From contig CAIJMQ010000043.1 of NCBI GenBank assembly GCA_903821905.1, positions 1 to 58,379 of the forward strand: a DNA stretch of 58,379 nt, written 5' to 3'. This DNA comes from an uncultured bacterium. GTDB taxonomy: Bacteria; CAIJMQ01. The position numbers and the translations under genes are program-made. Positions within the stretch are counted from its first letter, which is position 1; each line of letters starts with the position of its first letter. Below the pieces are notes generated by a model, which saw only the letters and a list, made by a program, of their open reading frames with translations, had not been told where the DNA came from and did not search any database. Shown here in pieces: positions 8,853 through 58,379 of the stretch.

Positions 8853-11201
8853 TTAGCTTGTAAACTTAAATCCTTTTTCTTTGAATAGTCTTATACATGC
8901 GTCTGCTACCTGGGGGTCATATAGAACCCCTTTATTTTTAAAAATTTCTTCTAATGCTATATCTATACCGAATGCTTCATGATAAGGCCTGTAGGCGGTC
9001 ATTGCTTCCACAACATCAGCTACACTAAGAATCCTTGCCTCAAGCATAATATCATCGCCTTTTAGTCTATCGGGATATCCGGAACCATTTATTCTTTCGT
9101 GGTGTTGGAGTACAATTTTCGCGACTGGCCATGGGAATTCTACTGTTTTTAATATATCATATCCCATTTTGGAATGAGTTCTGACTAAATCCATTTCTAT
9201 ATCAGTCAATTTTGAAGGTTTCCCAAGGATTTCTGCAGGAACTGCTATTTTACCTACATCATGAATAAGTCCTGCCATGCGGACTGCGTCTATCTGCTCT
9301 TGGGGTAATTTCATCTCTTCGGCTATAGCACATGCAAGCTGTGTTGTTTTTTGCTGGTGACCGGAAGTATATAAATCCCTTATTTCAACTGCAGATGCTA
9401 AAGCGGTTATCGTTTCTTCAAAAGCTCTTTTTAGTTTCTGGAAACTTTTTTCAAGTTCTTCTTCTGCTTTTTTTCGGTCAGTTATGTCAATCATCGTTGT
9501 TCTGACACTGGTGATTTTATCATTGCTATCATATTCAAATATGTCATCAATATTAACATGAAAATTTTTACCATCTTTTGTTACATATATTCGGTCTTTT
9601 GCTTCAGGGATAGATTTACCTGCTATCTTTAGCAGGAATCTTTTTTTTGCTTCTTCTTTTTGTTCCGACAGTATAAAATCAAATATAGGTTTCCCTATCA
9701 TCTCTTCAGGTTTATATCCAAACATTTTTGCCTCAGTGTGGTTTACGCTTGTTATAATCCCTTTTTTGTCCAAGATATGATACGCAACAGGGGCATCATC
9801 CCATAGTTCTCTGTATCTCTCTTCGCTAGTTTTGAGGGCTTCTTCTACAAATTTGTGTTCACTTATATCTCTGCAAATAGCCAACATGCTTGTTACTTTT
9901 CCTTTATCATCTTTTAATAGGGTTATAGACATTTGCGTAGGGAATACAGTCCCATCTTTTTTTGTATGATAAAGTTCACCTATCCATTCGCCCTTTGTCC
10001 TTATTTGTTGCAATTTTTTCTTAACCTCTTTTTTCTGTTCATCGTTATGTAAATCTAAAACTTTCATCTTAATTATTTCTTTGGGGGAATAACCGTGCAT
10101 TTTGGCAAAAGAATTATTTGTATATATCAAATTTTCTTCCAAGTCGCAGATTACTATTCCATCATTAGATTGTTCAACGGCAGAACTGAGTTTTTTTATC
10201 TCTTCTTCCGCCTTTTTACGTTCAGTAGTATCTTGAGATGTAAGAATTGCACCCTGGGGAAATGGTGAGATCGTTATGGACAAGAATTTACTGCCATATT
10301 TTTGTTCAGAGAATGTTTTTGTTTTTCCTAAACGAATGCACTCCATTAATTCAGAATACATATCAAGTTCGTGTTTATTTGCATAATCTTTATACATTAT
10401 GTCCCCGATATTTGGTAATCTGTCGCCGGATTTCTTTTTTGTTAAATTGAAACTAACGATTTCCCCTTTAGTATTTACGACTATGGTTTCTATCGGATTA
10501 TATTCAAATAAAGTTCTACTAAATTCTTCGTTTTTCTTTAATTGGTCCTCAACCCGTTTACGTTCTGTAATGTCTTGTATGGTTACCCGAATACCTGTGA
10601 TTTGTCCATTATCATCTAATAGAATCCTGTCATTTAGCAGAACCAATATTGAAGTCCCGTCTTTATGACGATAAGTGCGTTCAAAATGTGGAGATGGTGG
10701 AATAATTCCTTTAATTTTGTCCATGAATGCCTGATGTGATATTTCACGTTCCACAACAAAATCCCATACATAGTGTCCCAACATTTCCTTAGCAGTATAA
10801 CCAAGCATTTCCAACTCGGTGTGGTTAACCTGTGTGATTTTTCCCTCAATATCCAGTTCGTGGTAACCAATAGGTGCTTCATTAAACAATTCCTGAAGTT
10901 TTACGTCACGGTTTTTTAGTTCGTTTTCTATCCGAGATTCCAGGAAAGCGTAGAAAAGAGAACCCCACATTATGGGTATTAATATTCCGATAATGTCTCC
11001 GTAGATGTCAAAAGCATTGTTTACGCCGGTCCGTTCGAAAACATTACAGAGATGATAAAACAAAATTAAAGTAAGAAGTCCCAAAAAAAAGAACTTAATA
11101 CCCGGGTGCGAAACAGACTTCCACCTGGATAAAAAAATTATAAAAGCTATTGCAATAGTAAAAAAAGAAATAGTGTCAAGAATATTTATTATTAACTCCA
11201 C
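8853..11201 (-). CDS. Membrane-anchored multi-PAS HD-GYP phosphodiesterase (c-di-GMP signalling)
   Basis: N-terminal TM helices, at least four PAS-like repeats, and a C-terminal HD domain with HDVGK and HHERINGSGYP (HD-GYP) motifs; 782 aa. Confidence 0.85.
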   Translation of the reverse strand: MELIINILDTISFFTIAIAFIIFLSRWKSVSHPGIKFFFLGLLTLILFYHLCNVFERTGVNNAFDIYGDIIGILIPIMWGSLFYAFLESRIENELKNRDVKLQELFNEAPIGYHELDIEGKITQVNHTELEMLGYTAKEMLGHYVWDFVVEREISHQAFMDKIKGIIPPSPHFERTYRHKDGTSILVLLNDRILLDDNGQITGIRVTIQDITERKRVEDQLKKNEEFSRTLFEYNPIETIVVNTKGEIVSFNLTKKKSGDRLPNIGDIMYKDYANKHELDMYSELMECIRLGKTKTFSEQKYGSKFLSITISPFPQGAILTSQDTTERKKAEEEIKKLSSAVEQSNDGIVICDLEENLIYTNNSFAKMHGYSPKEIIKMKVLDLHNDEQKKEVKKKLQQIRTKGEWIGELYHTKKDGTVFPTQMSITLLKDDKGKVTSMLAICRDISEHKFVEEALKTSEERYRELWDDAPVAYHILDKKGIITSVNHTEAKMFGYKPEEMIGKPIFDFILSEQKEEAKKRFLLKIAGKSIPEAKDRIYVTKDGKNFHVNIDDIFEYDSNDKITSVRTTMIDITDRKKAEEELEKSFQKLKRAFEETITALASAVEIRDLYTSGHQQKTTQLACAIAEEMKLPQEQIDAVRMAGLIHDVGKIAVPAEILGKPSKLTDIEMDLVRTHSKMGYDILKTVEFPWPVAKIVLQHHERINGSGYPDRLKGDDIMLEARILSVADVVEAMTAYRPYHEAFGIDIALEEIFKNKGVLYDPQVADACIRLFKEKGFKFTS

Positions 11202-49144: not shown

Positions 49145-50077
49145 TCAAATTATCTTTTCCCTAAAATGTCTAATTGTTTTTTGAAGTCCTTCATCAATTC
49201 CAACTTTTGGTTGCCAATCCAGCAAATTTTTTGCTTTTGAAATATCTGGTCTTCTAACTTTTGGGTCATCTTCCGGAAGGGGTTTGAATAAGATTTTACT
49301 CTTGCTTTTAGTTATGGTTAATATCTTTTTAGTAAAGTCCAATATTGTCATCTCTTGAGGATTGCCAAGATTGATCGGATCATGAATTGGAGAATCCATT
49401 AATTTTAATATGCCTTCTACAAGGTCACTTATATAACAGAAACTTCTTGTTTGTTCCCCATTTCCAAATACGGTCAAGGGTTTTTCTTTAAGAGCTTGAT
49501 TGATAAAAGTTGGGACTACTCTGCCGTCATTTAACCTCATCCTAGGACCATAAGTATTGAAAATTCTGGCTATTCTTGTATCTAATTTGTGATATCGATG
49601 ATAAGCCATAGTCATAGCCTCTGCGAATCTTTTTGCTTCGTCATATACTCCTCTTGGGCCTATACAATTTACATTTCCCCAATATTCTTCTGATTGGGGA
49701 TTTACTTCAGGGTCTCCATAAACTTCGGATGTTGAAGCTAATAAATATTTTGCTTTCTTTGTTTTTGAAAGCCCCAAAGTATTATGTGTACCCAATGCCC
49801 CTACTTTTAGGGTCTGTATCGGAAACTTAATATAATCAATAGGCGAGGCTGGAGATGCAAAATGCAATATGTAATCCAATCCCCAGGGAATATCGATATG
49901 TTCAGTTACATTATGTTCTATAAATTGGAAATTTGGTGAGGGGAAAAGATGATTAATATTTTTCTTGTCTCCAGTTATGAAATTATCCATGCATATTACT
50001 TGATTCCCTTTTTTTATAAGCTCTTCACACAAGTGAGAGCCAATAAATCCTGCTCCACCGGTTATTAAAATTCTCAT
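49145..50077 (-). CDS. UDP-glucuronate decarboxylase (UDP-xylose synthase), SDR family
   Basis: TGGAGFIG Rossmann motif, SDR YxxxK, strong similarity pattern to UXS; 310 aa. Confidence 0.85.
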
Positions 50078-51312
50078 TCTGATATTTTGTATTTATTTAG
50101 TTTACCGCTTAATGCGGGTGGAATTTCCGCAGTGATTTTAACTCCATCATTCCCGAACTTCTTAAGAATAATTTTCCCTTCGTTGTAAATCATAGAAAGA
50201 ACGTCCATCTTGTTAAAGGGTATTAAAAATTTTACAACCTCTCTTCTCGATGGAAGTAGTTGAAGCAACTTGGTTTTTAACAAATCCATATTATTCCCGT
50301 TTAAACCAGATATAAAAAGCCCGTCTGGGAAAAATCTTTGAATCTCTCTTTTCCCCTCTACAGTAAGCTTGTCTTCTTTATTTAAAACCGTAATAGTAGG
50401 CCTATCTGATACGTTAAGTTCTTTCAGTAAATTTACTACGACCTTATAATCTCCTTCCACATTAACACTTGCCGAATCTATAACATGGATAAGAATGTCG
50501 GCATAGTTCACCTCTTCTAATGTAGATTTGAATGATGCTATTAGTTGGTGGGGAAGTTCTCTTATAAAACCTACGGTATCAACAAGAAGTACCTTCTGGT
50601 TATTACCTATGTCAATTCTCCTCATTACTGAATCGAGAGTTAAGAAGAGCTTGTCACCTTGGGGGAAATTCGAAGAAGACAAATGGTTTATCAATGTAGT
50701 CTTGCCCGAGTTTGTATATCCCACTAATACAACTAACGGGATCATCTTTTCCTTTCTTTTTTTTCTTTGAAGTTCCCGATGAAGCGATATCTTTTTTAGT
50801 CTTTTCTTAAGAAGCGTAATATGTCCTCGGATTGTTCTTCTGTCATATTCCAGTTTTGTCTCACCAGGTCCACTAGTTCCAATGCCTCCACCCAGTTGAG
50901 AAAGTTCTATTCCTTTGCCGGTAAGGCGAGGGAGTGAATAATTCGCTTTAGCAAGTTCCACTTGTATTTCGCCTTCCCTGGAACTTGCATGCTGGGCAAA
51001 GATATCCAATATCAGTTGAGTCCTGTCAATCACTTTTGTTTGTGTAACTTCTTCTAAGTTCCTTTGTTGAACGGGACTTAATTCATGGTCAAATATTATC
51101 AAGTTAGAGTTTTTTTGTTCGCATAAGTCCCTTAATTTTTCTGCCTGACCTTTTCCAATAAAGAGATTTGGAGTAGGTGAGAGGAAATCAAATCTTATAC
51201 AGTCTACTATTTCGGCCCCCGCTGTTTTAGCAAGTTGTTTCAGTTCTTCTTGTGGGTCATAATCTCGATATTTTTTAGCTGACACCAGTATGGCTAATTC
51301 CTTTTCTCTCAT
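50074..51312 (-). CDS. hflX: GTPase HflX
   Basis: HflX N-domain, G-domain [18 protein letters not shown]; 412 aa. Confidence 0.9.
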
Positions 51313-51435
51313 GATTGTCGTTATTTTACTCTGTTATTTTAAATAATGATAGGGCGTCTCTAATGTGGTTTACTACATTTACCAAATGTGTTATATTTAC
51401 AGCCTAAGAGTTGAGTAACGGAAGGAGGCATAATT

Positions 51436-53442
51436 ATGGTGTTGGTAGAGAACATAAGAAATGTCGCATTAGTATCGCAAAGTAATACCGGTAAAAGCTC
51501 TTTGGTCGCAAGTTTACTAACCCATGCCAAAGCAATCCAGAAGATTTCCAAGAAAGAAGAGTCCCACCTAATCTCTGATTTTACTCAGGAAGAGAAGGAA
51601 AGAAATTTCACTCATACAATCAAAATGTTCAATTTTTCTTATGATAAATTCAGTTTCAATTTAATAGATACTCCGGGTTATCCAGATTTCATTGGGGAGG
51701 TAATAAGTGCTCTTGCTGCTGTTGATGGTGTGATTTTTGTATTGGATGCAACAGGCAATATTGAAGTTCAAACAGAACAAATATGGCATATGGTCCAAGA
51801 AAAAAGTTTACCGCATTTGGTTTTTGTAAATAAGATGGATAGAGAAGAAGCAGACTTTACTAAAGTTTTAAAAGAGCTGGAAGAAAAATTAAACAAACAA
51901 TTTGTTCTGGTTCAAATGCCCCAAAGCGACGGGGGGATTTTGAAAGAAGGTGTAGATCTAATTAGCGAACCCGAAGCTATCCCAAGCGAAATGTTGGAAT
52001 ACAGAGAGAAATTAGTTGAGAGCGTAGCAGAGACGGATGATAGTTTAGTTGAGAAATATTTAGAGGTTGGTAAGCTTACTCTTGATGAGATAAAAAAAGG
52101 ATTAAAGATAGGGGTAAAACAGGGCACATTTTCACCGGTTGTATGTGGTTCTACATATGCAGATATAGGGATTGATTATTTAGTCAAATTCTTGATTGAT
52201 TTTTTCCCGACCCCTATAGAGAAAAAGGTGCTAGATAAAGATGGTAAATTGGTGGATATTATTGATATAAAAGATTCATTGGCTCAGGTGTTTAAAGTGA
52301 CTTCTGAACTTCATTTAGGAGATGTTGTTCTCTTCAGAGTGTTTTCAGGTAGATTTTCTGCGAGTTCCCTTGTTTATAATGTCTCAAGAGATTTGGAAGA
52401 AAAATTTGGGCAAAAAATACAGATTGTCAAAGGCCATACAAAAGATGAAGTTGATAGCGTCGGCCCAGGCGAAATTGCTGGAATAGCTAAACTTAAAGCT
52501 ACAAAAGTTTCCGATACTTTATCTAACAGCAGAGGTACAGTAGTTCTGAAATCTTTGGAATTCCCCTCTCCCAACACTTCCGTAGCTGTAGTTCCTAAAG
52601 AAAGTAAAGATGAGGAAAAATTAAGTTTTGCTCTTGACAGATTAGTCAGGGAAGATCCTACTCTTAGAATTGGTTTCAATAAAGAATTTAGTGAAATGGT
52701 ACTCTCTGGAATGGGAGAGTTACACCTAGGTACAGTATCTAAAAGATTGGCAAGTAGATTTGGAGTGCATGTTGAATTCAAAGAACCAAGAATACCTTAT
52801 AGAGAAACCATTAAGGGAATAGCTAAAGTTCAAGGTAAGTACAAAAGGCAGACAGGTGGGCATGGTCAATATGCAGATGTTTGGATAGAGGTTGAACCTT
52901 TACATAGAGGCAAAGGGTTTGAATTTGTTGACAAAATAGTTGGAGGAAAAATTCCTTCCAAATTTATTCCTTCAGTTGAGAAAGGGGTAAGAGAGGCCTT
53001 AAGCAAAGGTATTACTACGGGTTATCCCTTGACTGATATTAGGGTTAGTCTATATGATGGAAGTTTTCATGAGGTTGATTCTTCCGATATAGCTTTCCAA
53101 ATAGCGGGTTCAATGGCTTTAAGAGATGCAGTCCAGCAAGCAAAACCTATCATTATTGAACCTGTCATGGAAACAGAAATAACTTTACCAGAAGAACATG
53201 TTGGAGATGTGACAGGAGATATTAATTCCAGGAGAGGAAGAATAATCAACATTGAACCTAAAGGCCATTCCAGGGTAATAAAAGCACATGTTCCTCTTGG
53301 TGAATTGCACAGGTATGCTTCAACACTGAAATCCATAACACAGGGGAGAGGAACATTTCAGATGAAATTTGCTTGTTACGAAGAAACGCCTTCTCATATA
53401 GCTAAAAAGATTAGTGAGGAGTCTGCACACAAACCACACTAG
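51436..53442 (+). CDS. Divergent EF-G-like translational GTPase paralogue with the catalytic G3 His replaced by Tyr
   Basis: Five-domain EF-G architecture (domain IV KRQTGGHGQYADV). G1 is SQSNTGKSS, the G2 region is ERNFTHTI, G3 is DTPGY, and G4 NKMD is intact. 668 aa. Confidence 0.8.
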   Translation: MVLVENIRNVALVSQSNTGKSSLVASLLTHAKAIQKISKKEESHLISDFTQEEKERNFTHTIKMFNFSYDKFSFNLIDTPGYPDFIGEVISALAAVDGVIFVLDATGNIEVQTEQIWHMVQEKSLPHLVFVNKMDREEADFTKVLKELEEKLNKQFVLVQMPQSDGGILKEGVDLISEPEAIPSEMLEYREKLVESVAETDDSLVEKYLEVGKLTLDEIKKGLKIGVKQGTFSPVVCGSTYADIGIDYLVKFLIDFFPTPIEKKVLDKDGKLVDIIDIKDSLAQVFKVTSELHLGDVVLFRVFSGRFSASSLVYNVSRDLEEKFGQKIQIVKGHTKDEVDSVGPGEIAGIAKLKATKVSDTLSNSRGTVVLKSLEFPSPNTSVAVVPKESKDEEKLSFALDRLVREDPTLRIGFNKEFSEMVLSGMGELHLGTVSKRLASRFGVHVEFKEPRIPYRETIKGIAKVQGKYKRQTGGHGQYADVWIEVEPLHRGKGFEFVDKIVGGKIPSKFIPSVEKGVREALSKGITTGYPLTDIRVSLYDGSFHEVDSSDIAFQIAGSMALRDAVQQAKPIIIEPVMETEITLPEEHVGDVTGDINSRRGRIINIEPKGHSRVIKAHVPLGELHRYASTLKSITQGRGTFQMKFACYEETPSHIAKKISEESAHKPH

Positions 53443-53502
53443 AAATATCAATTTTATTTGTATTAGTGTATAATCCCCAACTGGTAAAAAGTGAGGTGAA
53501 AG

Positions 53503-54270
53503 ATGTCAGGACATAGTCATTGGGCTAGTATAAAACATAAAAAAGGAAAAGCCGATGCTGAAAAAGGTAAAATTTTCAGTCGGGTAGGCAAACAAATAAC
53601 AATTGCAGCACGCAGTGGCGGAGATGTTAGTATGAATGCCGCGTTAAGAGTAGCGATAGATGCCGCCAGGGAAGCCAATATGCCGCAGGATAACATAACC
53701 CGCGCTATAAAAAAAGGAACAGGAGAATTGCCGGGTATTGTCCTGGAACAATGTAGTTATGAAGCATATGGCCCCGGCGGAGTAGCTTTTTTTATAGAAG
53801 GAATAACTGACAATAAAAATAGAACATCTGCTGAAATAAAGCATATATTTTCAAAATTTGGCGGTAATCTTGCATCTCCGGGTTCTGCGGCTAGGTTTTT
53901 TAAGAAGAAAGGCGTGATAAACATCTCTATATACAAAACAGATGAAAAAACAGATAAATTCAACGAAGAAGAGTTAATGGAACTTACCATAAAAACAGGA
54001 GCTGAAGATTTTGAAATAGAAACAGACCAGTGTGTTCTAATTACCAAAGCAGAGGATTTAAATAAAGTTAAAGAAAGCCTTAAAAAAGAGAAAATCAATA
54101 TATCTTCTTCTCAAATTGAAATGTTCCCTGAAAATCCCATTAAAGTTGACGAAAAGACAGCAGAAAAAATAATACAGATTATGGAAACCTTGGAAGAGCA
54201 CGATGATGTTCAAAATGTCTTTGGAAATTTTGATATTCCGGATGAGATAATGGAAAAAGCAATAAAATAA
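53503..54270 (+). CDS. yebC: YebC/PmpR (TACO1) family protein
   Basis: MSGHSHWASIKHKKG start characteristic of the family; 255 aa. Confidence 0.9.
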   Translation: MSGHSHWASIKHKKGKADAEKGKIFSRVGKQITIAARSGGDVSMNAALRVAIDAAREANMPQDNITRAIKKGTGELPGIVLEQCSYEAYGPGGVAFFIEGITDNKNRTSAEIKHIFSKFGGNLASPGSAARFFKKKGVINISIYKTDEKTDKFNEEELMELTIKTGAEDFEIETDQCVLITKAEDLNKVKESLKKEKINISSSQIEMFPENPIKVDEKTAEKIIQIMETLEEHDDVQNVFGNFDIPDEIMEKAIK

Positions 54271-54369: not shown

Positions 54370-56004
54370 TTGATAGATATGAATAAAAATAGAATTATAA
54401 TTGTTTTGTTTTCAGTTGTTTTTTTATTCAGTGTAAATAATTCGGCAATGGCTGCGGGAAAACAATACTTATCTCCCTTTCTATCATTTGAAGGTTTATT
54501 CCCAGTTTCGGTTGCACAATTCGGGACTGGAGATTTTTCAATGGGTTTTTGGTTTCAAAACCCCGAGAGATGCCCTAATTATTTTGTTATAAATGTTCAA
54601 GACCCAGGCCAATCAAAATATGTCGTTGTTGGATGGCCTCAGGGGCAGGAAGTTTTGCAGGCAATTATGCACTCCGGTTCAACCACTATAACCGCCCAGA
54701 CAGATTATACTCTTTCAAGCACTCCCCATTTGCTTTTTTTGACATGTGATAGGAGCGAAACAGATGGCTTGAAGTTATGGTTAGATGGAGTTGTTGTCGC
54801 AACAGAAAATCCAACTTCTTTAGCTTCTATTGATTTCAGCCCAAGTTCCGAAACAGGAATAGTCCATATTAATTCTGGTGCTATTCAGAGTGGATTTGAC
54901 CCAGGAGACCAACTTTTTGATGATGTTCAGATATACACTGGGAAAGCATTCACCCCTGCCGAAATGGCTACAATCTGGAATAACGGAAAGGGCACGGAGG
55001 TAAATGAAACGACATTTGCATCTATTGTAAGCAATGGGGCTTATTGCAATTTTAACGGCAATAATTTTTATACTTATTCCACTGGAGCAGTTTCTTTTAT
55101 TGAAGGAGAAAACATTATTAACGGTGTCGGGACAAGTTGGACGGAAAGTATGAACCATGGAACAATCTATATTCCATCAATAGATAAAAAGTATCTGATA
55201 CTCTTTGCTATGCCAAATAATCCACCATATCAGGAAGGCGATGCAATACTCATCGGAAACGATGAAGTATTGCCAAGCAGCGGAAGCGAAGTTTCATATG
55301 TAATTACTGCCATAGGATTAAATATCCCAATGAGAAAATTAATAAACGGTGTTTGGTCTGATGAAAACTTGGTTTTTGCAGATTATATTGGGCGTGATTT
55401 TTCAGTTGGTGGAGTTCCTTTTACACCTACCACCACGGCTATCGCTACCGCAGGAGGAAATCCATATACTTTTGATAATTGGTCAACCTCCTTACCGATT
55501 TTAGTCACCTTAAGCTGTGATGATGTTTCTGGCCCTGGTTGTGGTACGACTTATTATTGTTCCGATACGGATAATAGTTGTACGCCAACAACAGTTTATT
55601 CAAGTGCAGTGTCGGTTTCTACTGCAGGGACGTCATATATCAGATTCTATTCTACGGACATGAATGGTGCCTCAGAAGCGATAAACAGTTCGACAATCAA
55701 AATATACCCCACTCCTTCCGCCAATGTAGACATTTCCTCAATTGATAATAGAAGTAATAATTGTTTCATAGCTACAGCTACTTATGGCACTCCAATGGCA
55801 GAGGAAGTTAGAGTTTTAAAGCAGTTTAGAAACGAATACCTGCTTACAAACCCGATAGGAGAAGTATTTGTAAACACTTACTATAAAATGTCTCCACACA
55901 TCGCCGATTTTATAAGAGTACACACTATATTAAAGAAGCCAGTTAGATTTATATTAAATCCTTTGATTTGGGTGAGCAGAAAAATAACAGAAGCAAGGTA
56001 TTAG
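54370..56004 (+). CDS. Secreted LamG/concanavalin-like domain protein with a conserved Cys-initiated C-terminal tail
   Basis: Signal peptide, a LamG-like block (LKLWLDGVVVATENP), and a C-terminal ~75 aa beginning NCFIATATYGTPMAEEVRVLKQFRNEYL; 544 aa. Confidence 0.6.
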   Translation: MIDMNKNRIIIVLFSVVFLFSVNNSAMAAGKQYLSPFLSFEGLFPVSVAQFGTGDFSMGFWFQNPERCPNYFVINVQDPGQSKYVVVGWPQGQEVLQAIMHSGSTTITAQTDYTLSSTPHLLFLTCDRSETDGLKLWLDGVVVATENPTSLASIDFSPSSETGIVHINSGAIQSGFDPGDQLFDDVQIYTGKAFTPAEMATIWNNGKGTEVNETTFASIVSNGAYCNFNGNNFYTYSTGAVSFIEGENIINGVGTSWTESMNHGTIYIPSIDKKYLILFAMPNNPPYQEGDAILIGNDEVLPSSGSEVSYVITAIGLNIPMRKLINGVWSDENLVFADYIGRDFSVGGVPFTPTTTAIATAGGNPYTFDNWSTSLPILVTLSCDDVSGPGCGTTYYCSDTDNSCTPTTVYSSAVSVSTAGTSYIRFYSTDMNGASEAINSSTIKIYPTPSANVDISSIDNRSNNCFIATATYGTPMAEEVRVLKQFRNEYLLTNPIGEVFVNTYYKMSPHIADFIRVHTILKKPVRFILNPLIWVSRKITEARY

Positions 56005-56066: not shown

Positions 56067-56122
56067 GAATAGGTTATGAATAAGTGTAGGAGTTTAAATA
56101 ATCTTACAAAAAATAATTTCTT

Positions 56123-58379
56123 ATGAGATATTATAAAAAAACAATTTCTTTGCCTGTTTTACCAATAGCCCTTGTAGTCATTTTTCTGCTCAATTTCCTC
56201 CCCACGTCAGTAATGGCTTTTTCCGGTTCGGGAAGCGGGACTTTGGAAAGTCCGTATGTGATAACAACCGTAGATCAGTTACAAGAGATGAGTAATAATT
56301 TGACCGCATACTATGTTTTAGGAAACGACATGAATGCTTCTGCTACACAGACATGGGACGGTGGCAAGGGTTTCAATCCTATCGGTTGCAGCACCATTTA
56401 TCCTGAATGTGGAACCCGCCCTGCTGGAAAATTCAATGGATCTTTAGACGGCAATGATCATATTATAAGTAATCTTTTTATTAATCGTCCATTAGAAAGT
56501 AATGTCGGTCTAATAGGCGCTACAGACTCGAATGCAATTGTAACCAATTTGGGTTTAGAGAATATTAATATAACAGGGGGATCTGCTACCGGCGGTCTGG
56601 TTGGGCATTGGAGAGGGAACCTTATTTCTAATGTTCATACTACTGGTATAGTGCACGGAGGATTTCAAACCGGTGGTATTTCTGGATGGGGTGAAGCCGG
56701 TTCTATTTACAATATTTTAAACTCCTATTCTGAATGCGATATAATTTCAACTAGTGCTGATGCAGGCGGCCTTGTTGGAGAAGGCGAATACGGAGGAATT
56801 TATAATTCTTATGCTACAGGGGACGTGTCGGGATCGGAAGGTGTCGGTGGCCTTATTGGAGACAGCGAAGGTTGTGGTATTTACAATTCTTACGCTACAG
56901 GGGATGTCTCAGGATCGGGAAACAAAGTTGGTGGTCTCAGAGGATACAGCGAATCTGGTGGCGATCCTGTCATCAACTCTTATGCTACGGGCGATGTGTC
57001 AGGGGCAAACTGGGTTGGTGGCCTTGTCGGGTACAATGAAGTTCCCATATTAAACTGTTATGCTACGGGTGATGTGTCAGGTTCAAACTATGTTGGCGGT
57101 CTTGCCGGTTTAACTACAGATGAGGGCCCTATTTCCAATTCTTACGCAATAGGAAATGTAGATGGGGGAAATCAACTTGGTGGTTTTGTAGGAGGATGCA
57201 CTACTGGTGATTGCCCTATTTCCAATTCTTACTCAACAGGAAACGTAAGTGGAGCCACTCAAGTAGGCGGCTTTATGGGAACAGCAGGAAGTTTGGTTTC
57301 CAATTCTTACTCAACAGGCTTTGTTACAGCAAGCAGCAATGCAGGCGGACTAATCGGTGTTATTACCGGAGACCCACCCACTAATTGTTATTGGTATGAC
57401 CAAGAAGACGATGCCGTTGATTGCTATTTAGGTGGCAACGATGGCTGTACTAAAAAAACAAGCGCAGATGGTCTTCAGTATTTTTACACCATCAGCAACT
57501 CGCCGATGAGTTCGTGGAATTTTACCAGTATCTGGGGGTCGTGGCTTAATGGCATAAATTATCAACCATTACTCTTTCAAGACATTACTACTCCTACCTG
57601 TTCTATTTTTTCAATCTCCGAAACATCAAGTTACGCTTACACTTCTGGTTCTACTATCTATTACAATACTGCTTACTCAGGTTCTTTTACTGTTAATGTT
57701 TTAGCTAGTGATAGCGAATCAGGTATCCAGAAAGTAAATTTCCCGGATACTGTTTCTGCTGGCGGCGATGATACTGACTCTCCCTATTCCTTTATTTACG
57801 ACTGGGACACATCCGATACCTTCTCCCAATCAGCCGATGTTACCTGTTATGACAATAACGATAATACCGAAACAACTTTATTTACCGTCACAAGAGACAT
57901 TACAGCTCCTTCAGGAGGAACTATCTCATATACTGACGGCATTTATACATCTCGTTCCGTCCCCATAACATACACTTTAGGTTCAGATTCTGTTTCAGGC
58001 CTCAATTCCTCTACAGGCAAGATTCAGAAAAGAGAAGCTATTTACTCAGGAGCAAGTTGCGGAACTTTTGGTGATTGGTCTGATTTAGTAACAGAATCTG
58101 ACGGTTCTTATACAGATACCACCGTTTCCTTTGGCAAATGTTATCAATACCGCTATCTTATTTCAGACAATGTTTCAAACCAAGCTGTATATACATCTTC
58201 AAACATTGCTACGATAGGAATTCCTCCCGACATCGATAGTGACGGCATGCCGGATGCCTGGGAAACAGAAAACGGTTTCAATCCCCTTGACCCTACCGAT
58301 GCAACCCAAGATACCGATAATGATGGTTTCACCAATTTAGAAGAATACCAGTTAGGCTATGATCCCAATAATGCATCCC
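56123..58379 (+). CDS. Large secreted GLUG-motif repeat surface protein (3'-partial, runs off the window end)
   Basis: I translated the frame by hand and it stays open from the ATG at 56123 to the window end (>750 codons). The track omits it because it has no stop. It has a signal peptide, a GSGTLESPYVIT start, at least 7 NSYATGDVSG...VGGL (GLUG) repeats, and a TSP3-like Ca-binding repeat (DSDGMPDAWE...DTDNDGFTNLEEY) at the end. Confidence 0.8.
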   Translation, partial: MRYYKKTISLPVLPIALVVIFLLNFLPTSVMAFSGSGSGTLESPYVITTVDQLQEMSNNLTAYYVLGNDMNASATQTWDGGKGFNPIGCSTIYPECGTRPAGKFNGSLDGNDHIISNLFINRPLESNVGLIGATDSNAIVTNLGLENINITGGSATGGLVGHWRGNLISNVHTTGIVHGGFQTGGISGWGEAGSIYNILNSYSECDIISTSADAGGLVGEGEYGGIYNSYATGDVSGSEGVGGLIGDSEGCGIYNSYATGDVSGSGNKVGGLRGYSESGGDPVINSYATGDVSGANWVGGLVGYNEVPILNCYATGDVSGSNYVGGLAGLTTDEGPISNSYAIGNVDGGNQLGGFVGGCTTGDCPISNSYSTGNVSGATQVGGFMGTAGSLVSNSYSTGFVTASSNAGGLIGVITGDPPTNCYWYDQEDDAVDCYLGGNDGCTKKTSADGLQYFYTISNSPMSSWNFTSIWGSWLNGINYQPLLFQDITTPTCSIFSISETSSYAYTSGSTIYYNTAYSGSFTVNVLASDSESGIQKVNFPDTVSAGGDDTDSPYSFIYDWDTSDTFSQSADVTCYDNNDNTETTLFTVTRDITAPSGGTISYTDGIYTSRSVPITYTLGSDSVSGLNSSTGKIQKREAIYSGASCGTFGDWSDLVTESDGSYTDTTVSFGKCYQYRYLISDNVSNQAVYTSSNIATIGIPPDIDSDGMPDAWETENGFNPLDPTDATQDTDNDGFTNLEEYQLGYDPNNAS
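56790..57380 (+). repeat. Tandem, degenerate repeats of ~75-90 nt encoding the GLUG units
   Basis: Recurring NSYATGDVSG(S/A)..VGGL codon blocks. Off-frame ORFs in the track (56754-57053, 57768-57968) are artefacts of this region. Confidence 0.7.

What the first reader, a model, noticed from the sequence alone, without database searches (positions are those of the whole stretch)
51436..53442. EF-G paralogue lacking the catalytic histidine (DTPGH -> DTPGY) with degenerate G1/G2
In translational GTPases (EF-G, EF-Tu, LepA, RF3, Tet(M)) the His of the G3 motif DxPGH activates the hydrolytic water. Here codon 82 (nt 51679-51681) is TAT, encoding Tyr. The P-loop is SQSNTGKSS rather than AHIDAGKTT, and the switch-I RGITI block is NFTHTI. 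NKMD (G4) and EF-G domains II-V are retained, including the domain IV tip. This predicts a factor that binds the ribosome and guanine nucleotide but cannot hydrolyse GTP in the canonical way. It would be a regulatory or 'locked' EF-G mimic rather than a translocase. I do not recall a described family with this exact His->Tyr change.
Basis: partly seen in the sequence, partly recalled or inferred. Interest (0 to 1): 0.7.

Follow-up and report, generated by a model that had tools for sequence, protein, structure and literature searches.

The report
Known EF-G2-type elongation factor paralogue
The gene encodes an intact EF-G-like ribosome factor with tyrosine in place of the catalytic histidine, but this is the normal hallmark of the already described EF-G2 (EFG II) family, so the finding is real but ordinary.

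Summary
ORF 51436..53442 (+) encodes a 668-aa five-domain EF-G homologue. Codon 82 (51679-51681) is TAT, and this Tyr aligns with the catalytic His87 of T. thermophilus EF-G.

It is not a new family. The protein belongs to the EFG II / EF-G2 subfamily (Margus et al. 2011). It carries that subfamily's diagnostic residues and falls inside it in a tree, apart from canonical AHIDAGKTT/DTPGH EF-Gs.

None of 118 full-length homologues has His at this position (Y 89, F 27, D 2). Three solved EF-G2 structures also lack it: T. thermophilus 1WDT (DAPGY), M. smegmatis 9K0Z (DTPGY) and B. thetaiotaomicron 7UVP/8DMF (DCPGS). The His-to-Tyr change has been described explicitly for M. smegmatis EF-G2.

Tyr is encoded by TAT or TAC in independent assemblies and dN/dS is about 0.1, so it is neither an error nor a pseudogene.

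The likely function is a nucleotide-binding alternative or stress translocation factor with weak or no canonical GTPase. This is inferred from characterised relatives, which disagree: Thermus EF-G-2 has the same Tyr and is reported to hydrolyse GTP.

The relatives are Omnitrophota-like. A side lead is a conserved hflX / fusA2-yebC gene cluster.

The parts
51436..53442 (+). fusA2-like gene: 668-aa EF-G2 / EFG II-type elongation factor G paralogue (stop codon included)
   Evidence: ORF. Pfam GTP_EFTU, EF-G_D2, EFG_III, EFG_IV, EFG_C. NCBIfam NF009381 781 bits, above cutoff 583. EFG II diagnostic residues. NJ tree. AF2 pLDDT 90 with an EF-G fold.
51424..51428 (+). GGAGG ribosome-binding site 7 nt upstream of the ATG
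   Evidence: Read directly from the sequence.
51475..51501 (+). G1 / P-loop SQSNTGKSS (residues 14-22). The GKS core is kept. The trGTPase His is replaced by Gln15, and the monovalent-cation Asp by Asn17.
   Evidence: Alignments. S-Q and GKS are invariant in the 20-sequence clade. Role of the Asp: PMC4342817.
51601..51621 (+). G2 / switch I RNFTHTI (residues 56-62) in place of RGITITA. The Mg2+-coordinating Thr59 is retained.
   Evidence: F-T is invariant in the clade.
51667..51681 (+). G3 / switch II DTPGY (residues 78-82). Tyr82 (TAT, 51679-51681) sits at the catalytic His position.
51829..51840 (+). G4 NKMD (residues 132-135), the guanine-specificity motif
   Evidence: N132 is invariant in alignment A1.
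52147..52155 (+). G5 GST (residues 238-240), corresponding to GSA of EF-G
   Evidence: G238 is invariant.
52843..52872 (+). Domain IV loop I KRQTGGHGQY (residues 470-479), the decoding-centre tip. It carries the EFG II-type basic residues Lys470 and Arg471 (1WDT positions 471-472).
   Evidence: PMC3150367 Table 2.
53068..53085 (+). Domain IV loop II HEVDSS (residues 545-550)
   Evidence: H545, V547, D548, S549 and S550 are invariant.
50074..51312 (-). hflX (ribosome-associated GTPase HflX), divergently transcribed neighbour. This arrangement is conserved in the closest orthologous loci.
   Evidence: Pfam. NCBIfam TIGR03156 420 bits. Synteny in L003, L004, L015 and L016.
53503..54270 (+). yebC (TACO1/YebC family), the next gene on the same strand after a 60-nt gap with no terminator-like site. 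This adjacency is conserved in many relatives.
   Evidence: Pfam. NCBIfam NF001030 300 bits. Terminator scan. Synteny.

Best explanation
The gene encodes a member of the EFG II / EF-G2 subfamily of elongation factor G. This is a widespread, fast-evolving bacterial family that normally accompanies a canonical EF-G.

Shown here: the protein has the complete five-domain EF-G architecture and a well conserved domain IV tip. It has an intact nucleotide- and Mg2+-binding core: the GKS of the P-loop, switch I Thr59, Asp78 of DxxG, NKMD and GST. It has lost the elements that canonical translational GTPases use for ribosome-activated hydrolysis. These are the catalytic His (now Tyr82), the P-loop Asp and switch I Gly that bind the monovalent cation (both now Asn), and one hydrophobic-gate Ile (now Ser16).

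Inferred from characterised relatives: it binds the ribosomal factor site with guanine nucleotide and engages the decoding centre through domain IV. It promotes slow translocation, or ribosome binding under stress or low energy, with little or no SRL/His-activated GTP hydrolysis. A canonical EF-G encoded elsewhere would carry out bulk translation.

Its position between hflX and yebC, both ribosome-associated factors, fits a role in stress or stalled-ribosome handling, but that link is untested.
For: Domain architecture: Pfam, and an AF2 model with pLDDT 90 and TM 0.8-0.92 to ribosome-bound EF-G structures, including EF-G2 entries 8DMF and 9K0Z.

Family placement: of 13 Margus 2011 type I/II positions, the query has the EFG II residue at Leu25, Asp216, Val250, Leu264, Gly333, Lys352, Lys471, Lys/Arg472 and Glu513. 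It deviates at 16 (Ser), 61 (Thr), 291 (Val, as in 1WDT) and 603 (Asn) (tables). The NJ tree puts it with T. thermophilus EF-G-2 and away from AHIDAGKTT/DTPGH EF-Gs. It exceeds the NCBIfam NF009381 cutoff.

Loss of His across the family: 0 of 118 close homologues have His. Among 149 50%-identity representatives the counts are Y 74, F 29 and H 8, and four of the eight His cases are canonical AH[IV]DAGKTT EF-Gs. Solved structures: 1WDT DAPGY, 9K0Z DTPGY, 7UVP DCPGS.

Selection: Tyr is coded by TAT or TAC in independent assemblies. dN/dS is about 0.1. The nucleotide-binding motifs are invariant within the 20-member clade.

Function of relatives: M. smegmatis EF-G2 has Tyr98 turned away from the gamma-phosphate, minimal ribosome-dependent GTPase, no recycling activity and a stress role, and EF-G1 H88Y nearly loses GTPase activity. 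B. thetaiotaomicron EF-G2 is induced on carbon limitation, is needed for gut colonisation, and allows GTP-independent translation. EFGII can substitute for EF-G with much slower translocation (PMC4342817).
Against: No biochemical data exist for this protein or its clade.

T. thermophilus EF-G-2 carries the same Tyr yet is reported to have intrinsic and ribosome-dependent GTPase and poly(Phe) activity (cited). Loss of hydrolysis therefore cannot be read from the Tyr alone.

By sequence score the query is closer to canonical T. thermophilus EF-G (518 bits) than to 1WDT (408 bits). It fails the narrower NCBIfam EF-G2 equivalogs NF009377 (549 versus 890) and EFG2_Bacteroid (487 versus 1000). It is thus a distinct sub-clade whose function may differ from the three studied proteins.

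A canonical fusA in the same genome was not demonstrated. There is none in the 58-kb window.
Confidence: 0.8

Rival explanations
1. It is an EF-G2 that still hydrolyses GTP on the ribosome by a His-independent route, as reported for T. thermophilus EF-G-2. It would then work as a genuine, perhaps slower, GTP-driven translocase.
For: T. thermophilus EF-G-2 (1WDT) has DAPGY and is reported to have intrinsic and ribosome-dependent GTPase and translocation activity. All nucleotide- and Mg2+-binding residues are strictly conserved in the clade.
Against: H88Y in M. smegmatis EF-G1 nearly abolishes GTPase activity, and M. smegmatis EF-G2 with Tyr has minimal activity. The query also replaces the P-loop His with Gln, and the cation-binding Asp and Gly with Asn. 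This takes it further from the canonical site than 1WDT is.
Confidence: 0.25
2. It is the only EF-G of this organism, so a His-less factor carries all translocation and recycling.
For: No canonical trGTPase motif (DxPGH, AHxDxGK[ST], RGIT[IV]) occurs in any frame elsewhere in the 58-kb window. The rest of the genome could not be inspected.
Against: In 590 genomes surveyed, a single EF-G gene was always of the EFG I type (PMC3150367). A 58-kb window is a small part of a genome, and fusA normally sits in the str operon, which is not in this window.
Confidence: 0.02
3. It is a Tet(M)/Tet(O)-type ribosomal protection protein or another EF-G-derived antibiotic-resistance factor.
For: It shares the five-domain architecture and gives weak NCBIfam tet_protect hits.
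Against: tet_protect scores 313 bits against a cutoff of 775, and the Tet(M), Tet(Q) and Otr(A) models fall far below their cutoffs. Tet(M) retains DTPGH (alignment). The tree places the query within EFG II. The gene lies in a conserved housekeeping neighbourhood.
Confidence: 0.02
4. The Tyr is a sequencing or assembly error, or the gene is a decaying pseudogene copy of fusA.
For: None found.
Against: The 668-codon ORF is intact and has a strong ribosome-binding site. DTPGYPDF is invariant in 20 clade members from independent samples. Tyr is coded by both TAT and TAC. dN/dS is about 0.1.
Confidence: 0.01

Closest known systems
Thermus thermophilus EF-G-2 (TTHA1498; PDB 1WDT/2DY1), the reference structure of the EFG II subfamily
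   Same: Similar length (665 versus 668 aa) and the same five domains. Tyr at the catalytic His position (DAPGY versus DTPGY). Shares Leu25, Gly333, Lys352, Lys471, Glu513, Val291 and the GGHGQY loop I. Foldseek TM 0.80.
   Different: Only about 34% identity. The P-loop is GHAGSGKTT versus SQSNTGKSS in the query. G4 is TKLD versus NKMD. GTPase activity is reported for the Thermus protein and is unknown here.
Mycobacterium smegmatis EF-G2 (MSMEG_6535; PDB 9K0Z/9K10; Baid & Sengupta 2025 FEBS J)
   Same: Identical DTPGY motif and a non-canonical P-loop and switch I. The His-to-Tyr replacement is explicitly described and linked to the lack of ribosome-dependent GTPase. Foldseek TM 0.87.
   Different: 709 aa with insertions. 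P-loop GPSGGGKTT and G4 TKLD. The query fails the NCBIfam EF-G2 equivalog NF009377 (549 versus 890 bits). Different genomic context.
Bacteroides thetaiotaomicron EF-G2 (BT_2167, fusA2; PDB 7UVP/8DMF; Han et al. 2023 EMBO J)
   Same: An EFG II-type paralogue lacking the catalytic His, with RGITI lost. It is starvation-induced and supports GTP-independent translation.
   Different: Ser rather than Tyr (DCPGS), G4 NQLD, and 718 aa. From my memory of the paper, which is not held in the library, a 26-residue EF-G2-specific region accounts for the lack of GTPase. The query scores 487 against a cutoff of 1000 on the EFG2_Bacteroid model.
Canonical EF-G (EFG I; e.g. T. thermophilus EF-G 1DAR, E. coli FusA)
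   Same: Same fold and domain order. 37-38% identity and the highest raw sequence score. NKMD and the domain IV loops are conserved.
   Different: The canonical protein has AHIDAGKTT, RGITI and DTPGH. The query has SQSNTGKSS, RNFTH and DTPGY, plus EFG II-specific residues in domains II and IV. The two lie in separate clades.

Membership tests
EFG II / EF-G2 subfamily (Margus, Remm & Tenson 2011) | Five-domain EF-G architecture (G with G', II, III, IV, V) | tested here: met
   Pfam hits to all domains. AF2 model with an EF-G fold.
EFG II / EF-G2 subfamily (Margus, Remm & Tenson 2011) | Type I position 25 (1WDT numbering): Leu instead of Thr at the end of the P-loop (99% in EFG II) | tested here: met
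   The query has Leu23 (SQSNTGKSSL), as do 114 of 118 homologues.
EFG II / EF-G2 subfamily (Margus, Remm & Tenson 2011) | Type I position 16: Gly instead of Ala (86% in EFG II) | tested here: not met
   The query has Ser14. Ser occurs in 40 of 118 homologues and is invariant in the query's clade. This feature is not universal in the family (86%).
EFG II / EF-G2 subfamily (Margus, Remm & Tenson 2011) | Type I domain II positions: Gly333 (98%), Lys/Arg352 (100%), Thr291 (81%) | tested here: met
   Gly and Lys are present. Position 291 is Val, the same as in the reference 1WDT.
EFG II / EF-G2 subfamily (Margus, Remm & Tenson 2011) | Type II positions: Asp216, Val250, Leu264, Lys471, Lys472, Glu513, Gly603 | tested here: met
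   The query has D, V, L, K, R and E at the first six. Position 603 is Asn instead of Gly, so 6 of 7 are met, counting K/R as equivalent.
EFG II / EF-G2 subfamily (Margus, Remm & Tenson 2011) | Loss of the trGTPase RGITI consensus in G2 while Ser/Thr is kept at the fourth position | tested here: met
   The query has R-N-F-T-H with Thr59 retained.
EFG II / EF-G2 subfamily (Margus, Remm & Tenson 2011) | Phylogenetic placement with EFG II and apart from EFG I | tested here: met
   NJ tree on 34 sequences. The query clade groups with T. thermophilus EF-G-2 and other DxPG[YF] proteins, while the AHIDAGKTT/DTPGH sequences form the outgroup side. This is a distance tree only, without bootstrap support.
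EFG II / EF-G2 subfamily (Margus, Remm & Tenson 2011) | Occurs alongside an EFG I (or spdEFG pair) in the same genome | not testable with these tools
   Only 58 kb is available, and it holds no second trGTPase. The genome-wide look-up tools could not enumerate a MAG.
NCBIfam NF009381 (PRK12740.1-5, 'elongation factor G' subfamily) | Score above the curated cutoff (583 bits) | tested here: met
   780.9 bits over residues 4-666.
NCBIfam NF009377 'elongation factor G-like protein EF-G2' and NF058620 'EFG2_Bacteroid' | Score above the curated cutoff (890 and 1000 bits) | tested here: not met
   549 and 487 bits. The protein is not an orthologue of these two narrower EF-G2 groups.
Canonical EF-G (TIGR00484 equivalog) | Score above the cutoff of 659.4, plus AHxDxGKT, RGITI and DxPGH | tested here: not met
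   589.6 bits, below the cutoff. All three motifs are altered.
Tetracycline ribosomal protection proteins (NF012153 tet_protect) | Score above the cutoff of 775 | tested here: not met
   313.5 bits.

The most novel reading that the evidence does not exclude
In the Omnitrophota-like lineage and neighbouring clades, the His-less EF-G2 forms a conserved functional module with YebC, and in the closest relatives with HflX. YebC is a recently recognised factor that relieves proline-rich stalls. EF-G2 would then be a dedicated partner for translocating or clearing stalled or slow ribosomes, rather than a generic spare EF-G. The invariant Ser-Gln P-loop of this clade would mark a distinct nucleotide-handling mode.
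Probability: 0.15. Interest if true: 0.55.

Novelty: new member of a known kind. Interest (0 to 1): 0.18.

Why it matters
An EF-G paralogue with Tyr in place of the catalytic His is already a defined, structurally characterised family, and public annotation simply calls these proteins 'elongation factor G'.

Two things have modest value. First, EF-G2 function remains unsettled: GTPase-active in Thermus, inactive in Mycobacterium and Bacteroides. This clade adds a further-diverged P-loop (invariant Ser-Gln, and Asn at the cation site) that could help separate nucleotide binding from hydrolysis. Second, the conserved fusA2-yebC adjacency, with hflX nearby, offers a testable hint about the cellular role of EF-G2.

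Tried and rejected
- **Sequencing error or pseudogene.** Rejected: the ORF is intact, the motif is invariant in orthologues, Tyr is coded by TAT or TAC, and dN/dS is about 0.1.
- **New, undescribed family.** Rejected: literature and PDB show DxPGY in known EF-G2 proteins.
- **Tet-type protection protein, RF3, BipA or LepA.** Rejected: NCBIfam scores are far below the cutoffs.
- **spdEFG1 / spdEFG2 or mitochondrial-type recycling EF-G2.** These were not tested directly. The query groups with EFG II in the tree. The preprint reports that mitochondrial EF-G2 retains the catalytic His145 and conserved G motifs.
- **Exact look-up of the query protein.** It found no record.
- **Genome-contig scan.** It returned only two distant loci (Desulfuromonadales 40%, Chloroflexota 36%), so neither the source genome nor close relatives could be examined for a canonical fusA.
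- **Cluster names for canonical-type representatives.** These gave Dictyoglomus, not Omnitrophota.
- **Han et al. 2023 (PMC9841332).** It is not held in the library, so statements about its 26-residue region rest on my memory.
- **Promoter and terminator scans around the gene.** Counts were no higher than in shuffled sequence. They were used only to note that no terminator-like site lies between fusA2 and yebC.
Full report
**Observation.** The window contains an intact ORF at 51436..53442 (+) encoding 668 aa. A GGAGG ribosome-binding site lies at 51424-51428. Codon 82 (51679-51681) is TAT, within GAT ACT CCG GGT TAT = D-T-P-G-Y.

Pfam detects the full EF-G architecture: GTP_EFTU, EF-G_D2, EFG_III, EFG_IV and EFG_C. 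phmmer against PDB sequences aligns 'NLIDTPGYPDF' with 'NIIDTPGHVDF' of T. thermophilus EF-G. It aligns 'SQSNTGKSS' with 'AHIDAGKTT' and 'ERNFTHT' with 'ERGITIT'. One nuance: the Mg2+-coordinating Thr of switch I (Thr59) is retained, and the P-loop keeps its GK[ST] core.

**Is the Tyr real and selected?** All 118 full-length homologues returned by the large protein search (42-80% identity) lack His at this column: Y 89, F 27, D 2. In DNA fetched from independent assemblies the Tyr is encoded by TAT or TAC, and Phe by TTC in an actinobacterial relative. dN/dS against two orthologues is 0.09-0.11 where dS can be estimated.

Within the 20-member clade closest to the query (50-80% identity), several elements are invariant:
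- S-Q at the start of the P-loop
- GKS
- F-T in switch I
- DTPGYPDF
- the domain IV loops

Domain IV is the most conserved domain, with 41% invariant columns. This is a functional gene under purifying selection. It is not an error or a pseudogene.

**What family is it?** Margus, Remm and Tenson (PLoS One 2011, PMC3150367) divided bacterial EF-Gs into EFG I, spdEFG1, spdEFG2 and EFG II. They describe EFG II as widespread, highly divergent in domains I-III, and lacking the RGITI consensus. They define it by a small set of differentially conserved positions.

I verified the full sequence of their reference structure 1WDT (T. thermophilus EF-G-2) against the PDB and aligned it with the query, T. 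thermophilus EF-G and 118 homologues. The query carries these EFG II residues:
- Leu25
- Asp216
- Val250
- Leu264
- Gly333
- Lys352
- Lys471
- Arg472
- Glu513

It deviates at four positions:
- Ser instead of Gly at 16
- Thr instead of Ser at 61
- Val at 291, as in 1WDT itself
- Asn at 603

A neighbour-joining tree places the query's clade inside the DxPG[YF] group together with T. thermophilus EF-G-2. The canonical AHIDAGKTT/DTPGH proteins, including Dictyoglomus EF-G, lie on the outgroup side.

NCBIfam's best model is NF009381, an 'elongation factor G' subfamily (781 bits, cutoff 583). The canonical EF-G equivalog TIGR00484 is not reached (590 versus 659). The two narrower EF-G2 models are not reached either (NF009377 549 versus 890; EFG2_Bacteroid 487 versus 1000), nor are the Tet models. 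The protein is thus a member of EFG II in a sub-clade distinct from the mycobacterial and Bacteroides EF-G2 groups.

**Is loss of the catalytic His already known?** Yes. PDB 1WDT/2DY1 has LLDAPGYGDF, and PDB 9K0Z/9K10 (M. smegmatis EF-G2 on the ribosome) has LIDTPGYADF. PDB 7UVP/8DMF (B. thetaiotaomicron EF-G2) has IDCPGSDDF.

A 2026 preprint from the Sengupta laboratory states that the catalytic His88 of M. smegmatis EF-G1 is replaced by Tyr98 in EF-G2. The Tyr points away from the gamma-phosphate. An H88Y mutation nearly abolishes EF-G1 GTPase activity. EF-G2 has minimal ribosome-dependent GTPase, does not recycle ribosomes, and acts under stress (10.64898/2026.05.25.727771). The primary paper is Baid & Sengupta 2025, FEBS J (reference seen).

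[quoted passage not shown] It can substitute for EF-G at much slower translocation rates.

An exhaustive HMMER search of 1.84 billion cluster representatives gives 4,246 hits at E<=1e-30. Among the best 149, the residue after DxPG is Y 74, F 29, D 9, H 8, S 7, A 6, N 5 and others. Four of the eight His cases are canonical AH[IV]DAGKTT EF-Gs. Absence of His is therefore the rule in this very large family, and an aromatic residue is preferred.

**Structure.** An AlphaFold2 model built from a 40-sequence alignment has mean pLDDT 90.1 and pTM 0.84. Foldseek against the PDB returns only EF-G-type structures. TM-scores reach 0.92 to ribosome-bound EF-G, with 0.80 to 1WDT, 0.85 to 8DMF and 0.87 to 9K0Z. 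I could not inspect side-chain geometry with the available tools.

**Mechanism.** Shown: the residues needed to bind guanine nucleotide and Mg2+ are present and invariant in the clade. These are Lys20 and Ser21, Thr59, Asp78, Asn132/Lys133/Asp135 and Gly238-Ser239. The tRNA-mimicking domain IV tip is also conserved.

Also shown: the elements of ribosome-activated hydrolysis are altered.
- The catalytic His is Tyr82.
- The P-loop His is Gln15.
- The P-loop Asp and switch I Gly that bind the monovalent cation are both Asn (Asn17, Asn57).
- The P-loop hydrophobic-gate Ile is Ser16.

Inferred: the protein binds the ribosome's factor site with nucleotide. It supports slow translocation or stress-related ribosome binding with weak or no canonical GTP hydrolysis, as reported for the Mycobacterium and Bacteroides proteins.

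The main caveat is T. thermophilus EF-G-2. It has the same Tyr but is reported to possess intrinsic and ribosome-dependent GTPase and poly(Phe) activity (as cited). A His-independent hydrolysis route therefore cannot be excluded, and I give this rival about 0.25.

**Organism and context.** The query protein itself is not on record. A 74%-identical cluster carries GenBank names 'elongation factor G [Candidatus Omnitrophota bacterium]', and a 50%-identical cluster is from Caldisericota.

The neighbourhood runs aconitase, alginate-export protein, acyltransferase, BNR protein, epimerase and hflX (reverse strand), then fusA2 and yebC. It is collinear with the orthologous contigs L003, L004, L015 and L016.

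No other ORF of EF-G size and no canonical trGTPase motif in any frame occurs in the 58-kb window. Whether a canonical fusA exists in the same genome could not be tested. The genome-collection scan returned only two distant loci. Margus et al. report that a lone EF-G is always EFG I, so a sole His-less EF-G is very unlikely here, though it is not excluded.

**Side observation.** In 8 of 13 independent loci carrying a DxPG[YF] EF-G2-like gene, the next gene on the same strand is yebC.
- With yebC: the window, L003/4, L015/16, L005/6, L011, L010, L007 and L013, spanning 43-76% identity to the query.
- Without yebC: L012, L008, L009, L014 and L001.

In the window and in L015 the usual ruvCAB genes do not follow yebC, yet fusA2-yebC stays together. 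No terminator-like site lies in the 60-nt gap.

YebC-family proteins were recently shown to relieve ribosome stalling at proline-rich sequences (PMC11990639, PMC12234827; titles and abstracts). HflX is a ribosome-rescue GTPase by NCBIfam naming. No paper in the searchable library mentions both YebC and EF-G2. This is a hint of a functional link, not evidence. The adjacency could simply reflect inheritance within related lineages.

**Verdict.** The claim of an undescribed family is wrong, and the 'not a translocase' reading is unsupported. The gene is a new, uncharacterised member of a known and structurally characterised family, so interest is low (0.18).

Noticed in passing
window 51436-54270; loci L003, L004, L005, L006, L007, L010, L011, L013, L015, L016: The EF-G2-like gene is directly followed on the same strand by yebC (TACO1/YebC family) in 8 of 13 independent loci, spanning 43-76% identity. 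This holds even where ruvCAB does not follow yebC (window, L015). No paper in the library mentions both YebC and EF-G2.
   Followed up: partly
window 50074-51312 (-): hflX (ribosome-associated GTPase) is divergently transcribed from the EF-G2 gene across a 123-bp gap. The same arrangement occurs in the 74-76% identical orthologous loci L003, L004, L015 and L016, but not in more distant relatives.
   Followed up: partly
window 54370-56004 (+): A 544-aa protein with an N-terminal hydrophobic segment and no Pfam hit. It has a C-terminal CFI-box-CTERM domain (NCBIfam NF041770, 92.8 bits, cutoff 40). It sits where ruvC-ruvA-ruvB follow yebC in related contigs.
   Followed up: partly
window ~56100-58379 (+): A stop-free reading frame of at least 754 codons runs off the 3' end of the window. 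It has a signal-like N-terminus and ends within thrombospondin-type-3-like 'DTDNDG' repeats. It was not listed by the ORF tool because it is truncated.
   Followed up: no
proteins P0014 and P0017 (54% and 51% identical homologues): Two members of the Ser-Gln P-loop clade have NKME / NKIE instead of NKxD in G4. That is Glu at the Asp which normally specifies guanine.
   Followed up: no
proteins P0219, P0223, P0266 (cluster representatives; tree): A few proteins that fall inside the EFG II group and have non-canonical P-loops nevertheless carry His after DxPG. This points to retention or reversion of the catalytic residue within the family.
   Followed up: no
protein P0208 (1040 aa): An EF-G-like protein whose match to the query starts at residue 349, so it carries an N-terminal extension of about 340 aa. 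Its G3 motif is DTPGH.
   Followed up: no
window 8853-11201 (-): A 782-aa protein with multiple PAS domains and a C-terminal HD_5/HD (HD-GYP-like) domain. It is probably a signalling phosphodiesterase and is unrelated to the finding.
   Followed up: no
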